Part shown: in pieces, positions 23,654-28,204 of the stretch | Position numbering within the stretch: position 1 is the stretch's first letter | Layout: every line of letters starts with the position of its first letter | Virus record (IMG/VR): IMGVR_UViG_2579778660_000001 | Strand: one strand, 5' to 3' | Origin: a virus | Lineage: Duplodnaviria > Heunggongvirae > Uroviricota > Caudoviricetes | DNA length: 64,000 nucleotides | Notes under the pieces: generated by a model | Told to the model about the DNA's origin: nothing | The model's database searches: none | Seen by the model: only the letters and a program-made list of their open reading frames with translations | Made by a program: the position numbers and the translations under genes

Positions 23654-23788
23654 TCACATTAGTAGCTTTGTTAACTCCCTCAATACCAGGTAGAAGAGTA
23701 ACAAAAATATTGACGCCAGTATTTGCGTGGTCAATGAAGCGTTCATAAACAGATCAATTAGCATTAATAATTCGAAGATAACATCCAT
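23654..23788 (-). CDS. small hydrophobic peptide (44 aa), candidate
   Basis: MDVIFELLMLIDLFMNASLTTQILASIFLLLFYLVLRELTKLLM; GGAGTG RBS. Confidence 0.3.
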   Translation of the reverse strand: MDVIFELLMLIDLFMNASLTTQILASIFLLLFYLVLRELTKLLM

Positions 23789-23886
23789 GTCATTCACTCC
23801 GTTTAATTTTTAATCTAATGCCAGCAAATGAAGCTGGCCCCCGCATAAAGATTAATGAAAGTCACTTGTCACCAGTGAGGGGATTT

Positions 23887-23981: not shown

Positions 23982-24311
23982 ATGGGCTATAGCAGACTCG
24001 ACGATAGGTACATTGAAGACGATATTTTTCGTGCGCTGTTTCACCAGGAAATGATTAAGCGGGTATCGGAGTATCACTCTGATAATTTCCAGTACACGAT
24101 AAAGATTGATGAAGTATATCGTTCAGACCTTGCAGCCTACAGGGCGTATGGCAATGCAGATTTGCGCTGGGTATTCCGGGTGCTGGTGGGCCATGAGTCA
24201 GAAATGGAAGAAATGCCCGCCGGGACCACGTTAACTCTTCCTGATGTGGCATGGCTGAGGAACAAGATCCGTGATTACGCGAGCGCGGAACCGGAGATAG
24301 AAAATGCCTGA
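23982..24311 (+). CDS. hypothetical protein (109 aa)
   Basis: GAGG RBS; 8-nt overlap with downstream gene. Confidence 0.55.
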   Translation: MGYSRLDDRYIEDDIFRALFHQEMIKRVSEYHSDNFQYTIKIDEVYRSDLAAYRAYGNADLRWVFRVLVGHESEMEEMPAGTTLTLPDVAWLRNKIRDYASAEPEIENA

Positions 24312-25497
24312 TTTCCTGAAAAAACAGGACGGGCGCTATATCACTGACGGCCTGTCCTCTAAGGACTTCACGCGTTTATTCGAGATTATCAGGAAAGAAC
24401 AAACCCGTAAGCGCCGACAAGCTCACCGGACGCTGACGCCAGGTAGACTGAGGAACAAATCCGCCGAAGATATTCTCAAGTTAGGGAAGAAAAAAGGCGG
24501 CACGTTCTTCACGCGAGACGACCTGAAAGGTTTCGAAAAGCTACGGAGTAAAACGCGCGAAAAATATGACAGCAAGACGGCTGGCATCACATACGCCCAG
24601 CTGGTGGCATCCAGCCAGGCAATCGATATTAAGCGTGCAAATAACGCCGTGGATGACGGATCTGGTATCAAAAGAGCTACCCCCGTATCTCTTCGCCACA
24701 ATGTGATTAATATCCGCGTAGAAGCATCGGATATATCCGTCCACCAGCACCATATCGTCCGGATACGCTTTGAAGAATGGGATCAGATGGTTGATGACAT
24801 CGCAGAAGACGATAAATCAGCTCTCAAAATCACTAAATCACTGTGCGCCGGGCGAGTGTCTTTCGATTGTGACTGTGGTCGTCATCAATACTGGTATCGT
24901 TACATCGCCACTGCGGGTAACTTTGCCCTGGCACCGCCAAAAGAATACGCCTATCCAAAAGTTCGCAACCCGAACCTGCAAGGCGTCGCCTGTAAACACG
25001 TGATCCACTCAATGACGCGGTTACAGTCCGCCAGTTGGCAAATGAGTATTGCTCGTGCGCTACAAAAGGCTGCAACGCAAATTGCATTTGGTGACGATCG
25101 CCGCCGTACAACCAAACACTTCTCAAAAGAAGACGAGAAGGAGTTTAATCGCAATCGTAGCAGTAAAACGAACGTTGAAGCCGCCAAACGCGAATGGAGA
25201 CTCTATCAGAAGCGCCAGGCAGCTTTAAGTTCAAAACTGGCAAAGGACAACGGCAAGATCGACAAGCTACGTGACCAATTGACCAGGGCCAGAAAGTTGT
25301 CAGACGCACAGAAAAAACGGGCGGCTGCAAAAGAAGCGGCCTTGCAACGAGAGAAGCAGAAAAACAAGGAGCTTCAGCAACGCCTTGCCGATCAGTTCGC
25401 ACTGAAGAAGCAGGCGTTCATTGATGCGCTTGTCATGGCAGGAACGTCACCTGAGCAAGCTGAAAAAATGTTTATAGAGTACGTGAAAAAAGCATAA
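24304..25497 (+). CDS. hypothetical protein with SWIM-like zinc-finger motif and basic coiled-coil C-terminus
   Basis: FDCDCGRH...VACKHVIH (CxC...CxH); Lys/Arg/Glu-rich C-terminal third. Confidence 0.55.
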   Translation: MPDFLKKQDGRYITDGLSSKDFTRLFEIIRKEQTRKRRQAHRTLTPGRLRNKSAEDILKLGKKKGGTFFTRDDLKGFEKLRSKTREKYDSKTAGITYAQLVASSQAIDIKRANNAVDDGSGIKRATPVSLRHNVINIRVEASDISVHQHHIVRIRFEEWDQMVDDIAEDDKSALKITKSLCAGRVSFDCDCGRHQYWYRYIATAGNFALAPPKEYAYPKVRNPNLQGVACKHVIHSMTRLQSASWQMSIARALQKAATQIAFGDDRRRTTKHFSKEDEKEFNRNRSSKTNVEAAKREWRLYQKRQAALSSKLAKDNGKIDKLRDQLTRARKLSDAQKKRAAAKEAALQREKQKNKELQQRLADQFALKKQAFIDALVMAGTSPEQAEKMFIEYVKKA

Positions 25498-25530
25498 ACC
25501 ACACATAGCCTAGTAGTTTATGCTGGGCTT

Positions 25531-26259
25531 TCATTTTTTTGAAAGATCAATTCCAGTATTATCAAATAAACTGGAAATATCAGACACCAATTTATTAAAA
25601 TGCTTGTCATCATTATAGAATGATGTGCTTTTTATAGCGACTATAAAATCACATAAATCTTGCGGAGATTCAATGCTAACACCCTTATTTTTATATAGTT
25701 CAATAATACTGCCAACATCAGTATGCAATAGTTTTATCGCACCACAAATTTCTCGCTGTTTCGTAGCTAGGTCATTAAGTTTATTTTCATTTTCATCTAA
25801 TATTTGTTTTGAATATTTAGCGTCATTGGTTGCTTGATTTAACTTTGTTTTCTTTCTTTGCAATTCTATTCTTTTATCATAATCAGCAACTTCATCTAAA
25901 TATCTTATTTCAGTGTATAATTTACTTGTTAGCTTAGATATCGTCAGTGTGAGAATAGGAGCTAATACAGATGCAAATACTCCATAAATAAATGGGATTA
26001 CAACGTGACAAACCCACGGGGGTACAATCCAATTATCAAAGAACGGTACATTACCACCAACAAAAACAATAGATAATGTATATAGGATGTCGTCCTTTGA
26101 CTTTAATATAATTAAAATATCCTTCCAGTTAAGGATTAGAAAAGAAATGACAACATATGCAAAAACCTTGTTAAATATTTTATCTTTTATTATTTCAGAA
26201 AATGATTTTAGTTCTGTTTCATTTATAGACGGATTATCTTTAACTTTTTCTGACATCAT
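25531..26259 (-). CDS. AT-rich hypothetical membrane protein (242 aa); candidate exclusion/abortive-infection-type cargo
   Basis: Visibly lower GC than flanks; 2-3 N-terminal TM helices, helical C-terminus; AGGAT RBS. Confidence 0.65.
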   Translation of the reverse strand: MMSEKVKDNPSINETELKSFSEIIKDKIFNKVFAYVVISFLILNWKDILIILKSKDDILYTLSIVFVGGNVPFFDNWIVPPWVCHVVIPFIYGVFASVLAPILTLTISKLTSKLYTEIRYLDEVADYDKRIELQRKKTKLNQATNDAKYSKQILDENENKLNDLATKQREICGAIKLLHTDVGSIIELYKNKGVSIESPQDLCDFIVAIKSTSFYNDDKHFNKLVSDISSLFDNTGIDLSKK

Positions 26260-26280
26260 AGCTTATCCTGATTACTTTTA

Positions 26281-26481
26281 TTATGGATAGTTAAAAGATT
26301 CAACAGGTGATGGTGGCTGAATTGGGTAATGTTTCTTCTCGTACTCCTCAATGAGAAGACTCATAACCTCAAAGAAATCACCTTCCGGAGTATTCATTTC
26401 CGGTTCGTTATCGAACATCGGTTCGACCGCACGCAGTGCGGCCTCATAATCTTGTTCTGTACGGATAGGTTTAATGTTCAT
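26281..26481 (-). CDS. antitoxin-like N-terminal domain ORF lacking HTH (possible truncated HigA-type antitoxin)
   Basis: IRTEQDYEAALRAVEPMFDNEPEMNTPEGDFFEVMSLLIEEYEKKH resembles antitoxin N-domain; ends where an HTH would start; 21 nt upstream of AT-rich gene. Confidence 0.45.
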   Translation of the reverse strand: MNIKPIRTEQDYEAALRAVEPMFDNEPEMNTPEGDFFEVMSLLIEEYEKKHYPIQPPSPVESFNYP

Positions 26482-26491
26482 TAATTACAAA

Positions 26492-26518
26492 GGAAAGCCC
26501 ACTTGCTAAGTGGGCTTT
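26492..26518. terminator. stem-loop between higA and downstream ORF
   Basis: AAAGCCCACTtgctAAGTGGGCTTT; T-run on plus side. Confidence 0.4.
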
Positions 26519-26537
26519 TTGTATGTGTTTTACTATA

Positions 26538-26876
26538 TCAGGCTGCTTTTTTATTCATGTTCCGCTGAGAAATAAATTTTTCAGCAGTATTGATACGACT
26601 TAACTCTTCCTGAACGCGCATATCATTTTCGACTTCCCACAGATCTACTGCGGTCTGAAGATTAATCCAAAAATCTACAGAAGTATCGAATGCTTTTGCC
26701 AGGCGATATGCCATATCCATCGTTAGCTTACGATTATTATTAACAAGAGCACTTACGGTGTTACGATGAACATGAAGTATTTCTGCTAACTCGTTGATCT
26801 TCAGCTCTAACGGCTCCAGGTATTCGTACAGCAGGATATCACCTACGGTCGTCGGTTTTCTGGTTGCCTGTTTCAT
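26538..26876 (-). CDS. higA: HigA-family antitoxin (XRE HTH)
   Basis: VGDILLYEYLEPLELKINELAEILHVHRNTVSALVNNNRKLTMDMAYRLAKAFDTSVDFWINLQ. Confidence 0.8.
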   Translation of the reverse strand: MKQATRKPTTVGDILLYEYLEPLELKINELAEILHVHRNTVSALVNNNRKLTMDMAYRLAKAFDTSVDFWINLQTAVDLWEVENDMRVQEELSRINTAEKFISQRNMNKKAA

Positions 26877-26947
26877 TTTTTTGCCCTTACTAGCGTGCGT
26901 ATTAAGTGGACTCTGGTCAGAACCCGGTCCGTAACCGGGTATCTGTT

Positions 26948-27250
26948 TTAGTATTTGTGAGGGTCGAGATACAAGTCCTCGGCCTTTCCGTTAACCCACT
27001 TAAAAATTAACCTATATTGCTTATTCACCCTTACTGATGAATAGCCATTTAGCTTCCCTGACAGTTCCTCATACCGATTACCTGGTGGTGATCTTAAATC
27101 CTTACAGGTAGTTGCGGCATTGATAATGTCCAACTTCCGTGACAATGTCATATGAATATCAGGAGGTATCTTTCTATGTGGTGTTGAAAATTCAAAAAAA
27201 TCATCAAGCCACGCATCCCTGAAATCCTTTATGTTAATTTTTTTGGTCAT
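26948..27250 (-). CDS. higB: HigB-family toxin (RelE/ParE superfamily)
   Basis: 100 aa; ...LRSPPGNRYEELSGKLNGYSSVRVNKQYRLIFKWVNG...; toxin-first order. Confidence 0.8.
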   Translation of the reverse strand: MTKKINIKDFRDAWLDDFFEFSTPHRKIPPDIHMTLSRKLDIINAATTCKDLRSPPGNRYEELSGKLNGYSSVRVNKQYRLIFKWVNGKAEDLYLDPHKY

Positions 27251-27296
27251 TAGTCATTTGATCCTCCGTGATGATTACCGAATGCCATAACTATAG

Positions 27297-27324
27297 CGCA
27301 CCGTTGCACTGTGCGCAAGTGCAT
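27297..27324. promoter_or_regulatory. putative higBA operator (overlapping inverted repeats)
   Basis: GCGCAC-N9-GTGCGC and TGCACT-N7-AGTGCA, 45-75 bp upstream of higB. Confidence 0.4.
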
Positions 27325-27412
27325 TTTATGAATTCCCCCTCCTTCATCCAAAATCACAATCTCCCGAAAATCTTCCTTTCGATACCTGACAGATCGACCT
27401 TTGAGGATGCTT

Positions 27413-28204
27413 ATGGGCCGTTTTGACGAATGGTTTGCTGACGATGCAAACCTGGCAAGTAAGGAGTCAGAACATGACAGCACGCAGAGAGAAACGCCAG
27501 CGCCGATTGAAGCGAATGCAGGAGGCGCGCCGGAACATGGCAATACCGGTTCGGATTCATTCAGCATTCTGGAAGAGCAACCCGCCGCCAAAGCTGATAG
27601 CCATGATAATTTTGCTGATAGCAACGGTGGCCTTACTCCGGATGCTGGCGAATCAGATATAGCCATACTTCCACCTTCCCTGGCTGGCAGAGAACCAACT
27701 CCACAGCTAAAAGCACGCTATAACGGGCATAAAGCCTTTAACGACCAAATCCGCGCAGACTGGATGCTGATTATTGAATCCAGCCCAGACGCGTTTCAGG
27801 CTCTCTTATATCGACCAGATGTTGGCACATATGGGGTAGTCAGCGACGAAACAGGAGAAGAGTCATTCACTGAACTGGATAACAACCAACGCGAACTGAC
27901 TTACCAGGAACCTGAAATCGTTTATGTGCTGGATAACCCTGACGGACGTGACTCTTTCCATGCGATTGACGCAGACGGTGAGCAGGATGGCTTAACCGAT
28001 GATGTTCTGATTCTGCGTATTGCAGCAAATAACGTCCCCGTCGGCTCAATTCTTGAATGGAATGAAGAGATGGTAAACGGCGTAGCCCGCCGCTGGTGGT
28101 ACGTGCACCGTATTTTTAGCTACGGCACACAGCATGTTGGTTCGCTTTACTACTGCATACCTGCCAGGAATTTTGATACGACTCAAAACGGAGTGATCGA
28201 ATGA
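27413..28204 (+). CDS. virion/baseplate-module protein (about 263 aa)
   Basis: First gene of a 4-gene coupled block ending in a spike-like protein; ATG at 27413 after GAGG. Confidence 0.5.
   Translation: MGRFDEWFADDANLASKESEHDSTQRETPAPIEANAGGAPEHGNTGSDSFSILEEQPAAKADSHDNFADSNGGLTPDAGESDIAILPPSLAGREPTPQLKARYNGHKAFNDQIRADWMLIIESSPDAFQALLYRPDVGTYGVVSDETGEESFTELDNNQRELTYQEPEIVYVLDNPDGRDSFHAIDADGEQDGLTDDVLILRIAANNVPVGSILEWNEEMVNGVARRWWYVHRIFSYGTQHVGSLYYCIPARNFDTTQNGVIE

What the first reader, a model, noticed from the sequence alone, without database searches (positions are those of the whole stretch)
25531..27330. AT-rich membrane-protein gene placed directly behind a truncated antitoxin-like ORF, next to an intact higBA
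The 242-aa gene at 25531-26259 is far more AT-rich than its flanks and encodes N-terminal TM helices plus a helical cytoplasmic domain with no recognisable family. Twenty-one nt upstream sits a 66-aa ORF that looks like the N-terminal domain of a HigA-type antitoxin but stops where the HTH should begin. Either an insertion truncated an older TA locus, or this is an uncharacterised two-gene membrane-effector module (exclusion or abortive infection).
Basis: partly seen in the sequence, partly recalled or inferred. Interest (0 to 1): 0.65.

Follow-up and report, generated by a model that had tools for sequence, protein, structure and literature searches.

The report
Antitoxin relic beside hypervariable phage membrane gene
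In this D6-like E. coli phage-plasmid the 66-aa ORF is a dead remnant of an older toxin-antitoxin pair, and the AT-rich gene behind it is a separate membrane-protein gene of unknown function that varies sharply between near-identical phage backbones, which suggests a role in phage exclusion or defence.

Summary

The window is a D6-like (P1-related) phage-plasmid. The minus-strand island sits between tail genes 25 and 7, which are contiguous in P1.

The 66-aa ORF is the N-terminal, toxin-binding domain of an E. coli K-12 (YgjM)-type HigA. Related elements show a decay series:
- PF09907 HigB + 119-aa HigA + membrane gene.
- The toxin gene replaced by the present PF05015 higBA, leaving an orphan 119-aa HigA (phage D6).
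- The orphan cut down (window type, 71 PLSDB plasmids; two further independent disruptions elsewhere).

So the AT-rich gene did not truncate the TA locus. It is present in every variant.

The more interesting result concerns the membrane gene. It forms at least 9 allele classes (29-63% aa identity) inside backbones that are 95-100% identical, with sharp boundaries. Its TM part is conserved and its cytoplasmic coiled coil and C-terminus are variable. It is under purifying selection.

Distant relatives are stand-alone antisense genes in P2-like and lambdoid prophages and in islands. No known family matches. I infer an exclusion or abortive-infection determinant, which is untested. Interest is moderate.

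The parts
24304..25497 (+). Left flank: tail gene, homologue of P1 gene 25 (397 aa)
   Evidence: 97.7% aa identity to D6 orf74 'similar to P1 gene 25' and 56% to P1 gp25. In P1, gene 25 abuts gene 7 with no island between them.
25507..25529 (.). Terminator-like hairpin between the convergent gene 25 and the membrane gene
   Evidence: Consensus scan: 9-bp stem followed by a T-run.
25531..26259 (-). AT-rich, hypervariable gene for a 242-aa protein with two predicted TM segments, a long coiled-coil helix and a small helical C-terminal domain (allele class A)
   Evidence: GC 0.288. AF2 pLDDT 76. At least 9 allele classes at 29-63% identity in the same slot of 95-100% identical backbones. pN/pS 0.30 within class A. 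No family except phrog_8191.
26260..26280 (-). 21-nt spacer carrying an AGGA Shine-Dalgarno-like motif before the membrane gene. The higA-distal terminator hairpin found in other variants is missing here.
   Evidence: Sequence. Comparison with D6, L017, L012 and L016. Hairpins in L017 and L022.
26281..26481 (-). 66-aa relic: N-terminal (toxin-binding) domain of an E. coli K-12 (YgjM)-type HigA antitoxin. The HTH is deleted, the cognate toxin is gone and the Shine-Dalgarno sequence is lost.
   Evidence: PD-Lambda-2_B positions 1-65, E 2.5e-16. 91% identity to D6 orf72 residues 1-65. orf72 matches PDB 5IFG/5YCL HigA. High DNA identity to D6 ends near 26305-26320. GGAG is present in type I loci and absent here.
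26494..26518 (-). Terminator-like hairpin closing the intact higBA operon
   Evidence: 11-bp stem with 5 GC pairs, then a T-rich tail. It belongs to the segment that replaced the PF09907 higB gene.
26538..26876 (-). Intact HigA antitoxin (112 aa), partner of the PF05015 HigB
   Evidence: TIGR02607 E 7.9e-30 and HTH_3 E 8e-11.
26948..27250 (-). Intact HigB toxin (100 aa), RelE-like, PF05015 type
   Evidence: PF05015 E 4.4e-35. Identical across all 11 type III loci.
27401..28204 (+). Right flank: tail gene, homologue of P1 gene 7
   Evidence: 99% aa identity to D6 orf69 'similar to P1 gene 7'.

Best explanation
The region is an antisense accessory island wedged into the late tail operon of a D6-like phage-plasmid, between the homologues of P1 genes 25 and 7. 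It has three layers with separate histories.

1. A working addiction module, PF05015 HigB with a TIGR02607 HigA, ending in its own terminator-like hairpin.

2. The wreck of an older addiction module. This was originally a PF09907 (YgjN-type) HigB with a two-domain 119-aa HigA (N-terminal toxin-binding domain plus C-terminal HTH). Layer 1 replaced the toxin gene and the antitoxin's Shine-Dalgarno sequence. In this lineage the orphan antitoxin then lost everything after about codon 58. The 66-aa ORF is that relic, not a partner of the gene behind it.

3. A stand-alone, AT-rich gene for a protein with two predicted TM segments. The predicted topology is N-in, with a cytoplasmic coiled-coil stalk of about 85 residues and a helical C-terminal head of about 50 residues. 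The gene is exchanged as a sharply bounded cassette and is kept as many old alleles.

Inferred mechanism: the protein is made in the lysogen and oligomerises through the coiled coil. The conserved TM part acts as anchor or effector and the variable cytoplasmic part sets specificity. It then either blocks superinfecting phage or phage-plasmid DNA at the inner membrane or aborts the infection.

Shown: the layering, the decay series, the hypervariability, purifying selection, independence from HigA and restriction to mobile elements.

Inferred: the topology, the oligomerisation and the exclusion/defence role.
For: Replicon and slot: phage D6 at 89.8% identity and 122 PLSDB plasmids. In P1, genes 26-25-7-24 are contiguous.

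Decay series:
- Type I loci have PF09907 HigB (E 2e-34) overlapping an intact 119-aa HigA with a GGAG Shine-Dalgarno sequence.
- Type II loci (D6) have the PF05015 higBA plus hairpin in place of the PF09907 higB.
- Type III is the window. No PF09907 toxin and no HTH remnant occur anywhere in the 64 kb.
- The orphan was disrupted three independent times (window deletion, L016 nonsense mutation, L021 frameshift). All five loci that keep the toxin have an intact antitoxin.

The TA pair is self-contained: 85%-identical HigBA pairs on IncX4 and IncF plasmids have no membrane gene downstream. Hairpins follow higA in L017 and L022.

Cassette behaviour:
- DNA identity is 95-100% in the flanks and 30-70% over about 730 bp.
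- Pairwise aa identity between allele classes is 29-63%. By region it is 65% for TM1, 52% for TM2, 24% for the coiled coil and 34% for the C-terminus.
- The same pattern appears in a second backbone: L022 and L038 have HigBA 98-100% identical but membrane proteins only 49% identical.
- The gene is functional: pN/pS 0.30. All 71 plasmids with allele A carry the same junction.

Context of distant homologues, each antisense to the flanking phage operons or lying in an island:
- A P2-like Klebsiella prophage, between gpV and gpS.
- A lambdoid prophage, between the replication and late-regulation genes.
- Islands with WYL, H-NS, methylase or AAA_13 genes.

Rarity: only 44 clusters among 1.84 billion representatives.
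Against: - The membrane gene does travel with YgjM-type higBA in two diverged lineages and into Klebsiella conjugative plasmids. A functional link to the TA pair is therefore not excluded.
- All three disruptions of the orphan antitoxin spare the N-terminal domain. That could mean the fragment is still used.
- Promoters for the membrane gene were not identified.
- Topology rests on hydropathy and charge counts only.
Confidence: 0.6

Rival explanations
1. Two-gene module. The 66-aa N-terminal fragment (or the full 119-aa HigA in D6) is the antitoxin or regulator of the membrane protein, which is a membrane-damaging toxin or Abi effector.
For: The ORFs are 21 nt apart in all 71 type III plasmids. 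HigA lies directly upstream of the membrane gene in every D6-like variant and in the Enterobacter/Klebsiella lineage. Three independent truncations all keep the N-terminal domain.
Against: The antitoxin has its own cognate PF09907 toxin in type I loci. It shows no co-variation with the membrane protein: HigA is 93-99% identical against 33-60% for the membrane protein. A terminator-like hairpin lies between the two genes in the ancestral forms. The orphan lost its Shine-Dalgarno sequence. Close HigBA pairs occur without the membrane gene, and distant membrane homologues occur without HigA.
Confidence: 0.1
2. Three-part system. PF09907 HigB, HigA and the membrane protein work together, in the way PD-lambda-2 or TAC systems carry a third component. 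The window holds a degenerate version in which only the effector and an adaptor fragment survive.
For: The order higB-higA-membrane gene is conserved across two HigBA lineages whose toxins are only 26% identical. The three genes moved together into Klebsiella conjugative plasmids: 96% DNA identity over 1352 nt. PD-lambda-2 sets a precedent for a HigB/HigA-like pair plus a third gene in defence (PMC9519451).
Against: Both lineages occupy the same slot of related backbones, so the shared order may simply be inherited. The Klebsiella copy is one event, and there the membrane gene is cut by an IS. The commonest variant (71 plasmids) has lost both the toxin and the HTH yet keeps the membrane gene under purifying selection. 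The module is absent from PADLOC.
Confidence: 0.1
3. The membrane protein is not an exclusion or defence factor. It is some other accessory function, such as a lysis or holin-like modulator, a morphogenesis helper, or a modifier of host envelope physiology.
For: It lies inside tail-gene clusters in two unrelated phage types. The fold is a generic TM hairpin plus coiled coil. The BFVD list includes holins, though only at non-significant scores.
Against: The gene is antisense to the late operons in the phage contexts examined. P1 assembles the same tail without it. It is truncated in some otherwise intact elements: L018, L023, L037. Extreme allelic diversity in identical backbones is not expected of a structural helper. 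No holin or lysis family matches.
Confidence: 0.15
4. The 66-aa fragment is kept on purpose as an anti-addiction decoy. A toxin-binding domain without DNA binding would neutralise the PF09907 HigB of competing type I phage-plasmids, so this element can displace them without the host being killed.
For: In the modular antitoxin VcHigA2 the N-terminal segment alone neutralises its toxin (PMC5416850). All three independent disruptions fall between codons 52 and 69, just after that domain. The ORF is intact in all 11 type III loci examined.
Against: The Shine-Dalgarno sequence is lost and a terminator lies immediately upstream. Diversity is too low to show selection (6 synonymous and 3 non-synonymous pair-differences). 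Three events is a small, post hoc sample. VcHigA2 is a different HigA subfamily from the one here.
Confidence: 0.1

Closest known systems
E. coli K-12 HigB/HigA (YgjN/YgjM; PDB 5IFG, 5YCL) and the widespread plasmid-borne PF09907 HigB + two-domain HigA pairs
   Same: The full-length orthologue of the 66-aa ORF (D6 orf72, 119 aa) aligns with K-12 HigA over both domains. In type I loci it follows a PF09907 toxin in toxin-first order. Several hundred plasmids carry relatives.
   Different: In the window only the N-terminal domain survives. There is no HTH, no cognate toxin and no Shine-Dalgarno sequence.
Rts1-type HigB/HigA (PF05015 / TIGR02607), reported as the D6 post-segregational killing system (PMC6799933)
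   Same: The intact pair at 26538-27250 passes both curated cut-offs and has the toxin-first order. The D6 literature already lists it as an addiction module.
   Different: Nothing notable. It is an ordinary member, but here it overwrote the toxin gene of the older module.
PD-lambda-2 (Vassallo et al. 2022, PMC9519451)
   Same: The 66-aa ORF matches the first 65 positions of component B, the HigA-like N-terminus. That system likewise combines HigB/HigA-like parts with a third gene.
   Different: Component B is about 400 aa with an HTH and an ImmA/IrrE peptidase domain, both absent here. Components A and C gave no PADLOC match among the proteins tested. The third gene of PD-lambda-2 is not a membrane protein.
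Prophage-encoded inner-membrane exclusion or abortive-infection proteins (P22 SieA, lambda/P22 SieB, T4 Imm, lambda RexB). This comparison is from my own knowledge.
   Same: A small membrane protein encoded by a temperate element as an antisense or independently transcribed accessory gene, dispensable for virion production, and diverse between related phages.
   Different: No sequence or fold similarity was detected to any of them (Pfam scan of 19 members; PADLOC). Most of this protein is a cytoplasmic coiled coil plus a head domain. No function has been tested.
Entry-exclusion proteins of SXT/R391 elements (Eex), where a variable cytoplasmic C-terminus of an inner-membrane protein sets exclusion specificity. 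This comparison is from my own knowledge.
   Same: A conserved membrane anchor with a variable cytoplasmic C-terminal part, and discrete allele groups among closely related mobile elements.
   Different: No homology. That mechanism is conjugative and not phage-related. The analogy is one of design only.

Membership tests
HigB/HigA, PF05015 + TIGR02607 type (26538-27250) | RelE-fold HigB toxin domain | tested here: met
   PF05015 E 4.4e-35, 120.5 bits against a cut-off of 27.
HigB/HigA, PF05015 + TIGR02607 type (26538-27250) | HigA antitoxin with HTH, encoded downstream of the toxin | tested here: met
   TIGR02607 102.5 bits against a cut-off of 47.7. Gene order is toxin then antitoxin on the minus strand.
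HigB/HigA, PF05015 + TIGR02607 type (26538-27250) | Toxin activity neutralised by the antitoxin | not testable with these tools
   Requires expression experiments.
YgjM-type (E. coli K-12) two-domain HigA antitoxin, tested on the 66-aa ORF | N-terminal toxin-binding domain | tested here: met
   91% identity to residues 1-65 of D6 orf72, which aligns to PDB 5IFG/5YCL HigA. PD-Lambda-2_B positions 1-65, E 2.5e-16.
YgjM-type (E. coli K-12) two-domain HigA antitoxin, tested on the 66-aa ORF | C-terminal Xre-type HTH and dimerisation domain | tested here: not met
   No Pfam hit for the 66-aa ORF, whereas orf72 has HTH_3 at residues 63-115. No remnant of the HTH sequence occurs in the window.
YgjM-type (E. 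coli K-12) two-domain HigA antitoxin, tested on the 66-aa ORF | Cognate PF09907 HigB toxin immediately upstream | tested here: not met
   Present in L017, L019, L020, L022, L023 and L024. Absent from the whole window.
PD-lambda-2 defence system | Component B with HigA-like N-terminus, HTH and ImmA/IrrE peptidase (about 400 aa) | tested here: not met
   Only profile positions 1-65 of 402 are matched. There is no peptidase.
PD-lambda-2 defence system | Components A and C present | tested here: not met
   No PADLOC hit to PD-Lambda-2 A or C among the four island proteins.
Known superinfection-exclusion, Abi or holin membrane families in Pfam (e.g. SieB, Imm, RexB, holins), tested on the 242-aa protein | Profile match to the family | tested here: not met
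   No such family appears at E <= 0.5 in any of 19 diverse members. The matches seen are scattered one- or two-member hits, mostly to coiled-coil families, with no family shared across members.
Known defence effectors (PADLOC v2, including 2TM effectors), tested on the 242-aa protein | Profile match shared by family members | tested here: not met
   No hit for the window protein. The rest are scattered single-member coiled-coil matches: JetC, LmuB, one '2TM effector' at 4e-4, and PD-Lambda-1 at 1.8e-5 in P0038 only, over its coiled-coil region.
Tetrameric cation-channel pore domain (KcsA-like), tested on the 242-aa protein | TM1 - pore helix - selectivity filter - TM2 fold with significant structural similarity | tested here: not met
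Type II toxin-antitoxin pair made of the 66-aa ORF and the 242-aa protein | Conserved two-gene linkage across homologues, with co-variation | tested here: not met
   Distant homologues lack HigA. HigBA homologues lack the membrane gene. There is no co-variation.

The most novel reading that the evidence does not exclude
The slot holds an uncharacterised family of lysogen-expressed inner-membrane proteins. Its conserved TM module is coupled to a rapidly diversifying cytoplasmic coiled coil and head. In this reading it acts as an allele-specific exclusion or abortive-infection determinant in competition among D6-like phage-plasmids, and in P2-like and lambdoid prophages. Alongside it, the orphan HigA is repeatedly trimmed to its toxin-binding domain because that fragment serves as an anti-addiction decoy against rival elements carrying the PF09907 toxin. 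Together this would make the island a two-pronged inter-element competition locus.
Probability: 0.12. Interest if true: 0.7.

Novelty: new member of a known kind. Interest (0 to 1): 0.4.

Why it matters
D6-like phage-plasmids are common in E. coli, Salmonella and Shigella. At least 71 PLSDB plasmids carry this exact arrangement. Such elements are studied as vehicles of resistance genes and as competitors of other phages and plasmids.

One small gene differs by 40-70% in protein sequence between otherwise near-identical elements. That marks it as a candidate for whatever decides which element or phage can enter an occupied cell. It is easy to test by cloning or swapping alleles. If it is an exclusion or defence gene, it adds a family that current defence catalogues (PADLOC) do not contain, and one that also sits in P2-like and lambdoid prophages.

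The TA part gives a clear worked example of addiction-module turnover: a toxin gene replaced, then the orphan antitoxin decaying three separate times. By itself that part is ordinary.

Tried and rejected
- Word-indexed homology search found only close E. coli relatives. The exhaustive HMM search was needed to reach distant ones.
- The search for related loci failed with the 19-sequence alignment. With 8 sequences it found nothing in genome contigs but 22 viral loci.
- AlphaFold2 with 3 sequences was unusable (pLDDT 49.6). With 19 sequences it reached pLDDT 76.
- The channel-pore resemblance among non-significant Foldseek hits was considered and rejected as evidence.
- Pfam and PADLOC scans of all 19 members gave only scattered single-member matches, mostly to coiled-coil families.
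- I rejected the idea that the AT-rich gene inserted into and truncated the TA locus, because the gene is present downstream of the intact antitoxin in all variants.
- P2 itself and other sequenced phages do not carry a homologue. Only D6 does, among 50,697 phage records.
- The D6 genome paper (PMC5800970) is not held. No paper mentions the protein accessions or the PHROG.
- tRNA and Rfam scans of the window found nothing.
- Consensus promoter scans were no better than shuffled sequence.
Full report
**1. Observation**

- A 242-aa ORF at 25531-26259.
- A 66-aa ORF at 26281-26481, 21 nt upstream of it.
- A 112-aa ORF at 26538-26876.
- A 100-aa ORF at 26948-27250.

The 242-aa gene has GC 0.288 and GC3 0.21. 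The two flanking plus-strand genes have 0.49-0.50 and the window 0.472. It has two hydrophobic stretches, at about residues 32-54 and 77-108, and matches no Pfam, NCBIfam or PADLOC family. Its only hit is phrog_8191, of unknown function.

The 100-aa and 112-aa proteins are a canonical HigB (PF05015, E 4e-35) and HigA (TIGR02607, E 8e-30).

The 66-aa ORF matches the first 65 positions of PADLOC's PD-Lambda-2_B (E 2.5e-16). Vassallo et al. describe that component as a HigA-like domain fused to a peptidase (PMC9519451).

**2. What the replicon is**

The region is 89.8% identical to phage D6, a P1 relative. It is 95-99% identical to many non-mobilisable plasmids of about 90 kb from E. coli, Salmonella and Shigella.

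The flanking genes are the homologues of P1 tail genes 25 (24304-25497) and 7 (27401-28204). In P1 itself genes 26-25-7-24-6-5 are contiguous. Gene 7 starts 4 nt after gene 25 ends.

The minus-strand block is therefore an accessory island inserted antisense into a late tail operon. The D6 literature lists higA-higB as a post-segregational killing system and says nothing about the two genes behind it (PMC6799933).

**3. The 66-aa ORF is a relic of an older toxin-antitoxin pair**

In D6 the same gene (orf72) is 119 aa. Residues 1-58 are nearly identical to the window ORF. Residues 63-115 are an HTH_3 domain. Its best solved relative is E. coli K-12 HigA (5IFG, 5YCL; E 8e-8). The alignment spans residues 6-112 of orf72, covering both the part upstream of the HTH and the HTH itself.

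Twenty-two related loci from IMG/VR, plus plasmid records, sort into a series.

| Type | Arrangement upstream of the membrane gene | Loci |
|---|---|---|
| I | PF09907 (YgjN-type) HigB (E 2e-34) overlapping an intact 119-aa HigA, with a GGAG Shine-Dalgarno sequence | L017, L019, L020, L023, L024 |
| I' | A diverged PF09907 HigB (103 aa) + HigA (139 aa) in the same slot of a more distant backbone | L022, L028, Enterobacter plasmid L038 |
| II | PF09907 toxin gene replaced, up to its stop codon, by the PF05015 higBA plus a terminator-like hairpin; the GGAG is removed and the 119-aa HigA is left orphaned | D6 (L001/L011), L012, L013, L014, L018 |
| III | The orphan is cut to 66 aa | window, L002-L010, L015 |

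High DNA identity to D6 ends near 26305-26320, inside the gene. About 200 bp, including the HTH and the downstream hairpin, are missing.

No PF09907 toxin and no HTH remnant exist anywhere in the 64-kb window.

The orphan was also disrupted independently in two other loci. L016 has a CAG-to-TAG change that leaves a 68-aa ORF, and L021 has a +1 frameshift at codon 52/53. All five loci that retain the cognate toxin keep the antitoxin intact. This is the pattern expected once an antitoxin loses its toxin.

Close relatives of this HigBA pair (85% identity) sit on IncX4 and IncF plasmids with nothing resembling the membrane gene downstream. Hundreds of plasmids carry the pair. It is a self-contained TA module.

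**4. The AT-rich gene: a hypervariable cassette**

This is the more interesting result. The membrane gene is present in every variant, directly downstream of the HigA gene, whether that gene is intact or not.

Sharp boundaries:
- Backbones are 95-100% identical at the DNA level up to the end of higA.
- Identity then falls to 30-70% across about 730 bp.
- It returns to at least 95% in gene 25.

Allele diversity:
- The proteins fall into at least nine classes with 29-63% pairwise identity.
- In the same loci gp25 is about 97% identical and gp7, in most of them, 97-100%.
- The same pattern recurs in the second backbone lineage. L022 and L038 have HigB and HigA 98-100% identical but membrane proteins only 49% identical.

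Divergence is uneven along the protein:

| Region | Mean pairwise identity |
|---|---|
| TM1 region | 65% |
| TM2 | 52% |
| Loop between the TMs | 44% |
| Coiled coil | 24% |
| C-terminal domain | 34% |

The gene is functional. Within class A, pN/pS is 0.30, against 0.07-0.12 for most neighbouring genes and 0.39 for gp24.

All 71 PLSDB plasmids with a class A allele (at least 95% identity) carry the identical truncation junction. Type III arose once and is now the commonest form.

The gene is occasionally broken: L018, L023, and Klebsiella plasmids where an IS cuts it. It is therefore dispensable.

**5. Structure and wider family**

AlphaFold2 with 19 homologues (mean pLDDT 76) gives helices at 31-43 and 45-53, a short helix at 58-67, one continuous helix from 81 to 192 (TM2 running into a long coiled coil; pLDDT about 95 for residues 121-170) and a small helical C-terminal domain.

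Charge distribution is compatible with an N-in, C-in topology. That would place the variable two-thirds of the protein in the cytoplasm. This is an inference.

Fold searches gave nothing specific:
- Foldseek against PDB and BFVD found nothing significant.
- The top, non-significant Foldseek hits were cation-channel pore domains. There is no conserved filter motif, so I do not count this as evidence.

An exhaustive profile search found only 44 clusters among 1.84 billion representatives. The distant members lie on mobile elements and have no HigA neighbour:
- A P2-like Klebsiella prophage, between gpV and gpS, antisense.
- A lambdoid prophage, between the replication genes and the late-regulation and lysis genes, antisense.
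- Islands with WYL regulators, H-NS, a methylase or an AAA_13 ATPase.
- One chromosomal site.

Among 50,697 phage genomes only D6 has a homologue.

**6. Are the two ORFs a functional pair?**

Evidence for a link:
- They are adjacent.
- The order higB-higA-membrane gene holds in two diverged lineages.
- The three genes moved together into Klebsiella conjugative plasmids (96% DNA identity over 1352 nt).
- All three disruptions of the orphan spare the N-terminal domain.

Evidence against a link:
- The antitoxin has its own toxin.
- It does not co-vary with the membrane protein.
- Terminator-like hairpins separate higA from the membrane gene in L017 and L022.
- The orphan lost its Shine-Dalgarno sequence.
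- Each partner occurs widely without the other.
- The HTH, or more of the antitoxin, was lost three times without damage to the membrane gene.

I conclude that the two are neighbours, not partners, with about 0.1 left for each linked-function rival.

**7. Most likely mechanism**

The following points are typical of genes that temperate elements express in the lysogen to exclude or abort other phages:
- A dispensable, AT-rich gene with its own terminator-like hairpin, found on mobile elements of several kinds, including three prophage types.
- Antisense orientation relative to the flanking phage operons wherever those were seen.
- Many old alleles kept in a sharply bounded cassette.
- A conserved membrane part with a variable cytoplasmic part.

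I therefore propose an inner-membrane oligomer whose variable cytoplasmic stalk and head set target specificity. The conserved TM module would either block incoming DNA or ejected proteins at the membrane, or compromise the membrane on sensing infection.

None of this is tested. No promoter was identified and there is no homology to any characterised exclusion or defence protein. I put the layered-history part at about 0.8 and the exclusion/defence role at about 0.4. The combined statement is scored 0.6.

**8. Novelty and score**

The TA components are known families, and the relic is ordinary gene decay. The membrane protein is an unannotated family. If the inference holds, it is a new member of a known kind: prophage-encoded membrane exclusion or Abi proteins. 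The hypervariable cassette and the repeated trimming of the orphan antitoxin are worth a bench test but would not astonish a specialist. Interest 0.4.

Noticed in passing
window 26281-26481; L016:4512-4871; L021:4558-4920: The orphan 119-aa HigA was inactivated three independent times: a deletion, a CAG-to-TAG nonsense mutation and a +1 frameshift. Each event falls between codons 52 and 69, just after the N-terminal toxin-binding domain and before the HTH. The sample is small, but the clustering is more than a uniform expectation would give.
   Followed up: partly
L037:3153-4363 (K. pneumoniae pAZS099-NDM-IMP); about 54 Klebsiella plasmids: Large Klebsiella plasmids (the one examined in detail is conjugative, IncFIB/IncHI1B) carry higB-higA plus the first 134 codons of the membrane gene. 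The segment is 96% DNA-identical to the Enterobacter-type phage-plasmid L022 and is then cut off, with IS903B adjacent in many records. This suggests transfer of the cassette between a phage-plasmid and a conjugative plasmid.
   Followed up: partly
L021:5811-6290: One variant has an extra segment of about 800 bp, with a 159-aa ORF that has no Pfam match, inserted between the membrane gene and gene 25. The slot accepts further cargo.
   Followed up: no
L029-L032:4001-5576: In P2-like Klebsiella prophages a distant homologue (P0024, 216 aa) lies antisense between gpV and gpS. It is convergent with a 247-aa gene that has a weak HNH_5 match (E 7e-4). This may be a small accessory or defence islet in the P2 tail cluster.
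   Followed up: partly
model m333901929cb8 (window 25531-26259): Many of the top Foldseek PDB hits are cation-channel pore domains (full-length KcsA, TRPV1, Kv, NaK, MthK). They match the TM1 - short helix - TM2 - long C-terminal helix layout, but at E 4-9 and probability <= 0.08. This is a lead only.
   Followed up: partly
P0038 residues 94-221: The most distant family member matches PADLOC PD-Lambda-1 profiles (E 1.8e-5 and 3.2e-5) over its coiled-coil region. No other member does, so this is probably compositional.
   Followed up: no
L018:3889-4634; L023:5001-5402: In two otherwise intact D6-like contigs the membrane gene itself is disrupted (ORFs of 193 and 147 aa), while the upstream 119-aa HigA is intact. 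The gene is dispensable for maintenance of the element.
   Followed up: partly
window 23654-23797 (-): A 47-aa strongly hydrophobic ORF lies between the mat and gene 26 homologues. It corresponds in position to D6 orf77 (hypothetical). It was not examined.
   Followed up: no
window 26260-26330 (-): The type III deletion removed the terminator-like hairpin that follows higA in all other variants. It also brought an AGGA motif and the membrane gene to within 21 nt of the relic ORF. This could raise read-through expression of the membrane gene in the commonest variant.
   Followed up: no
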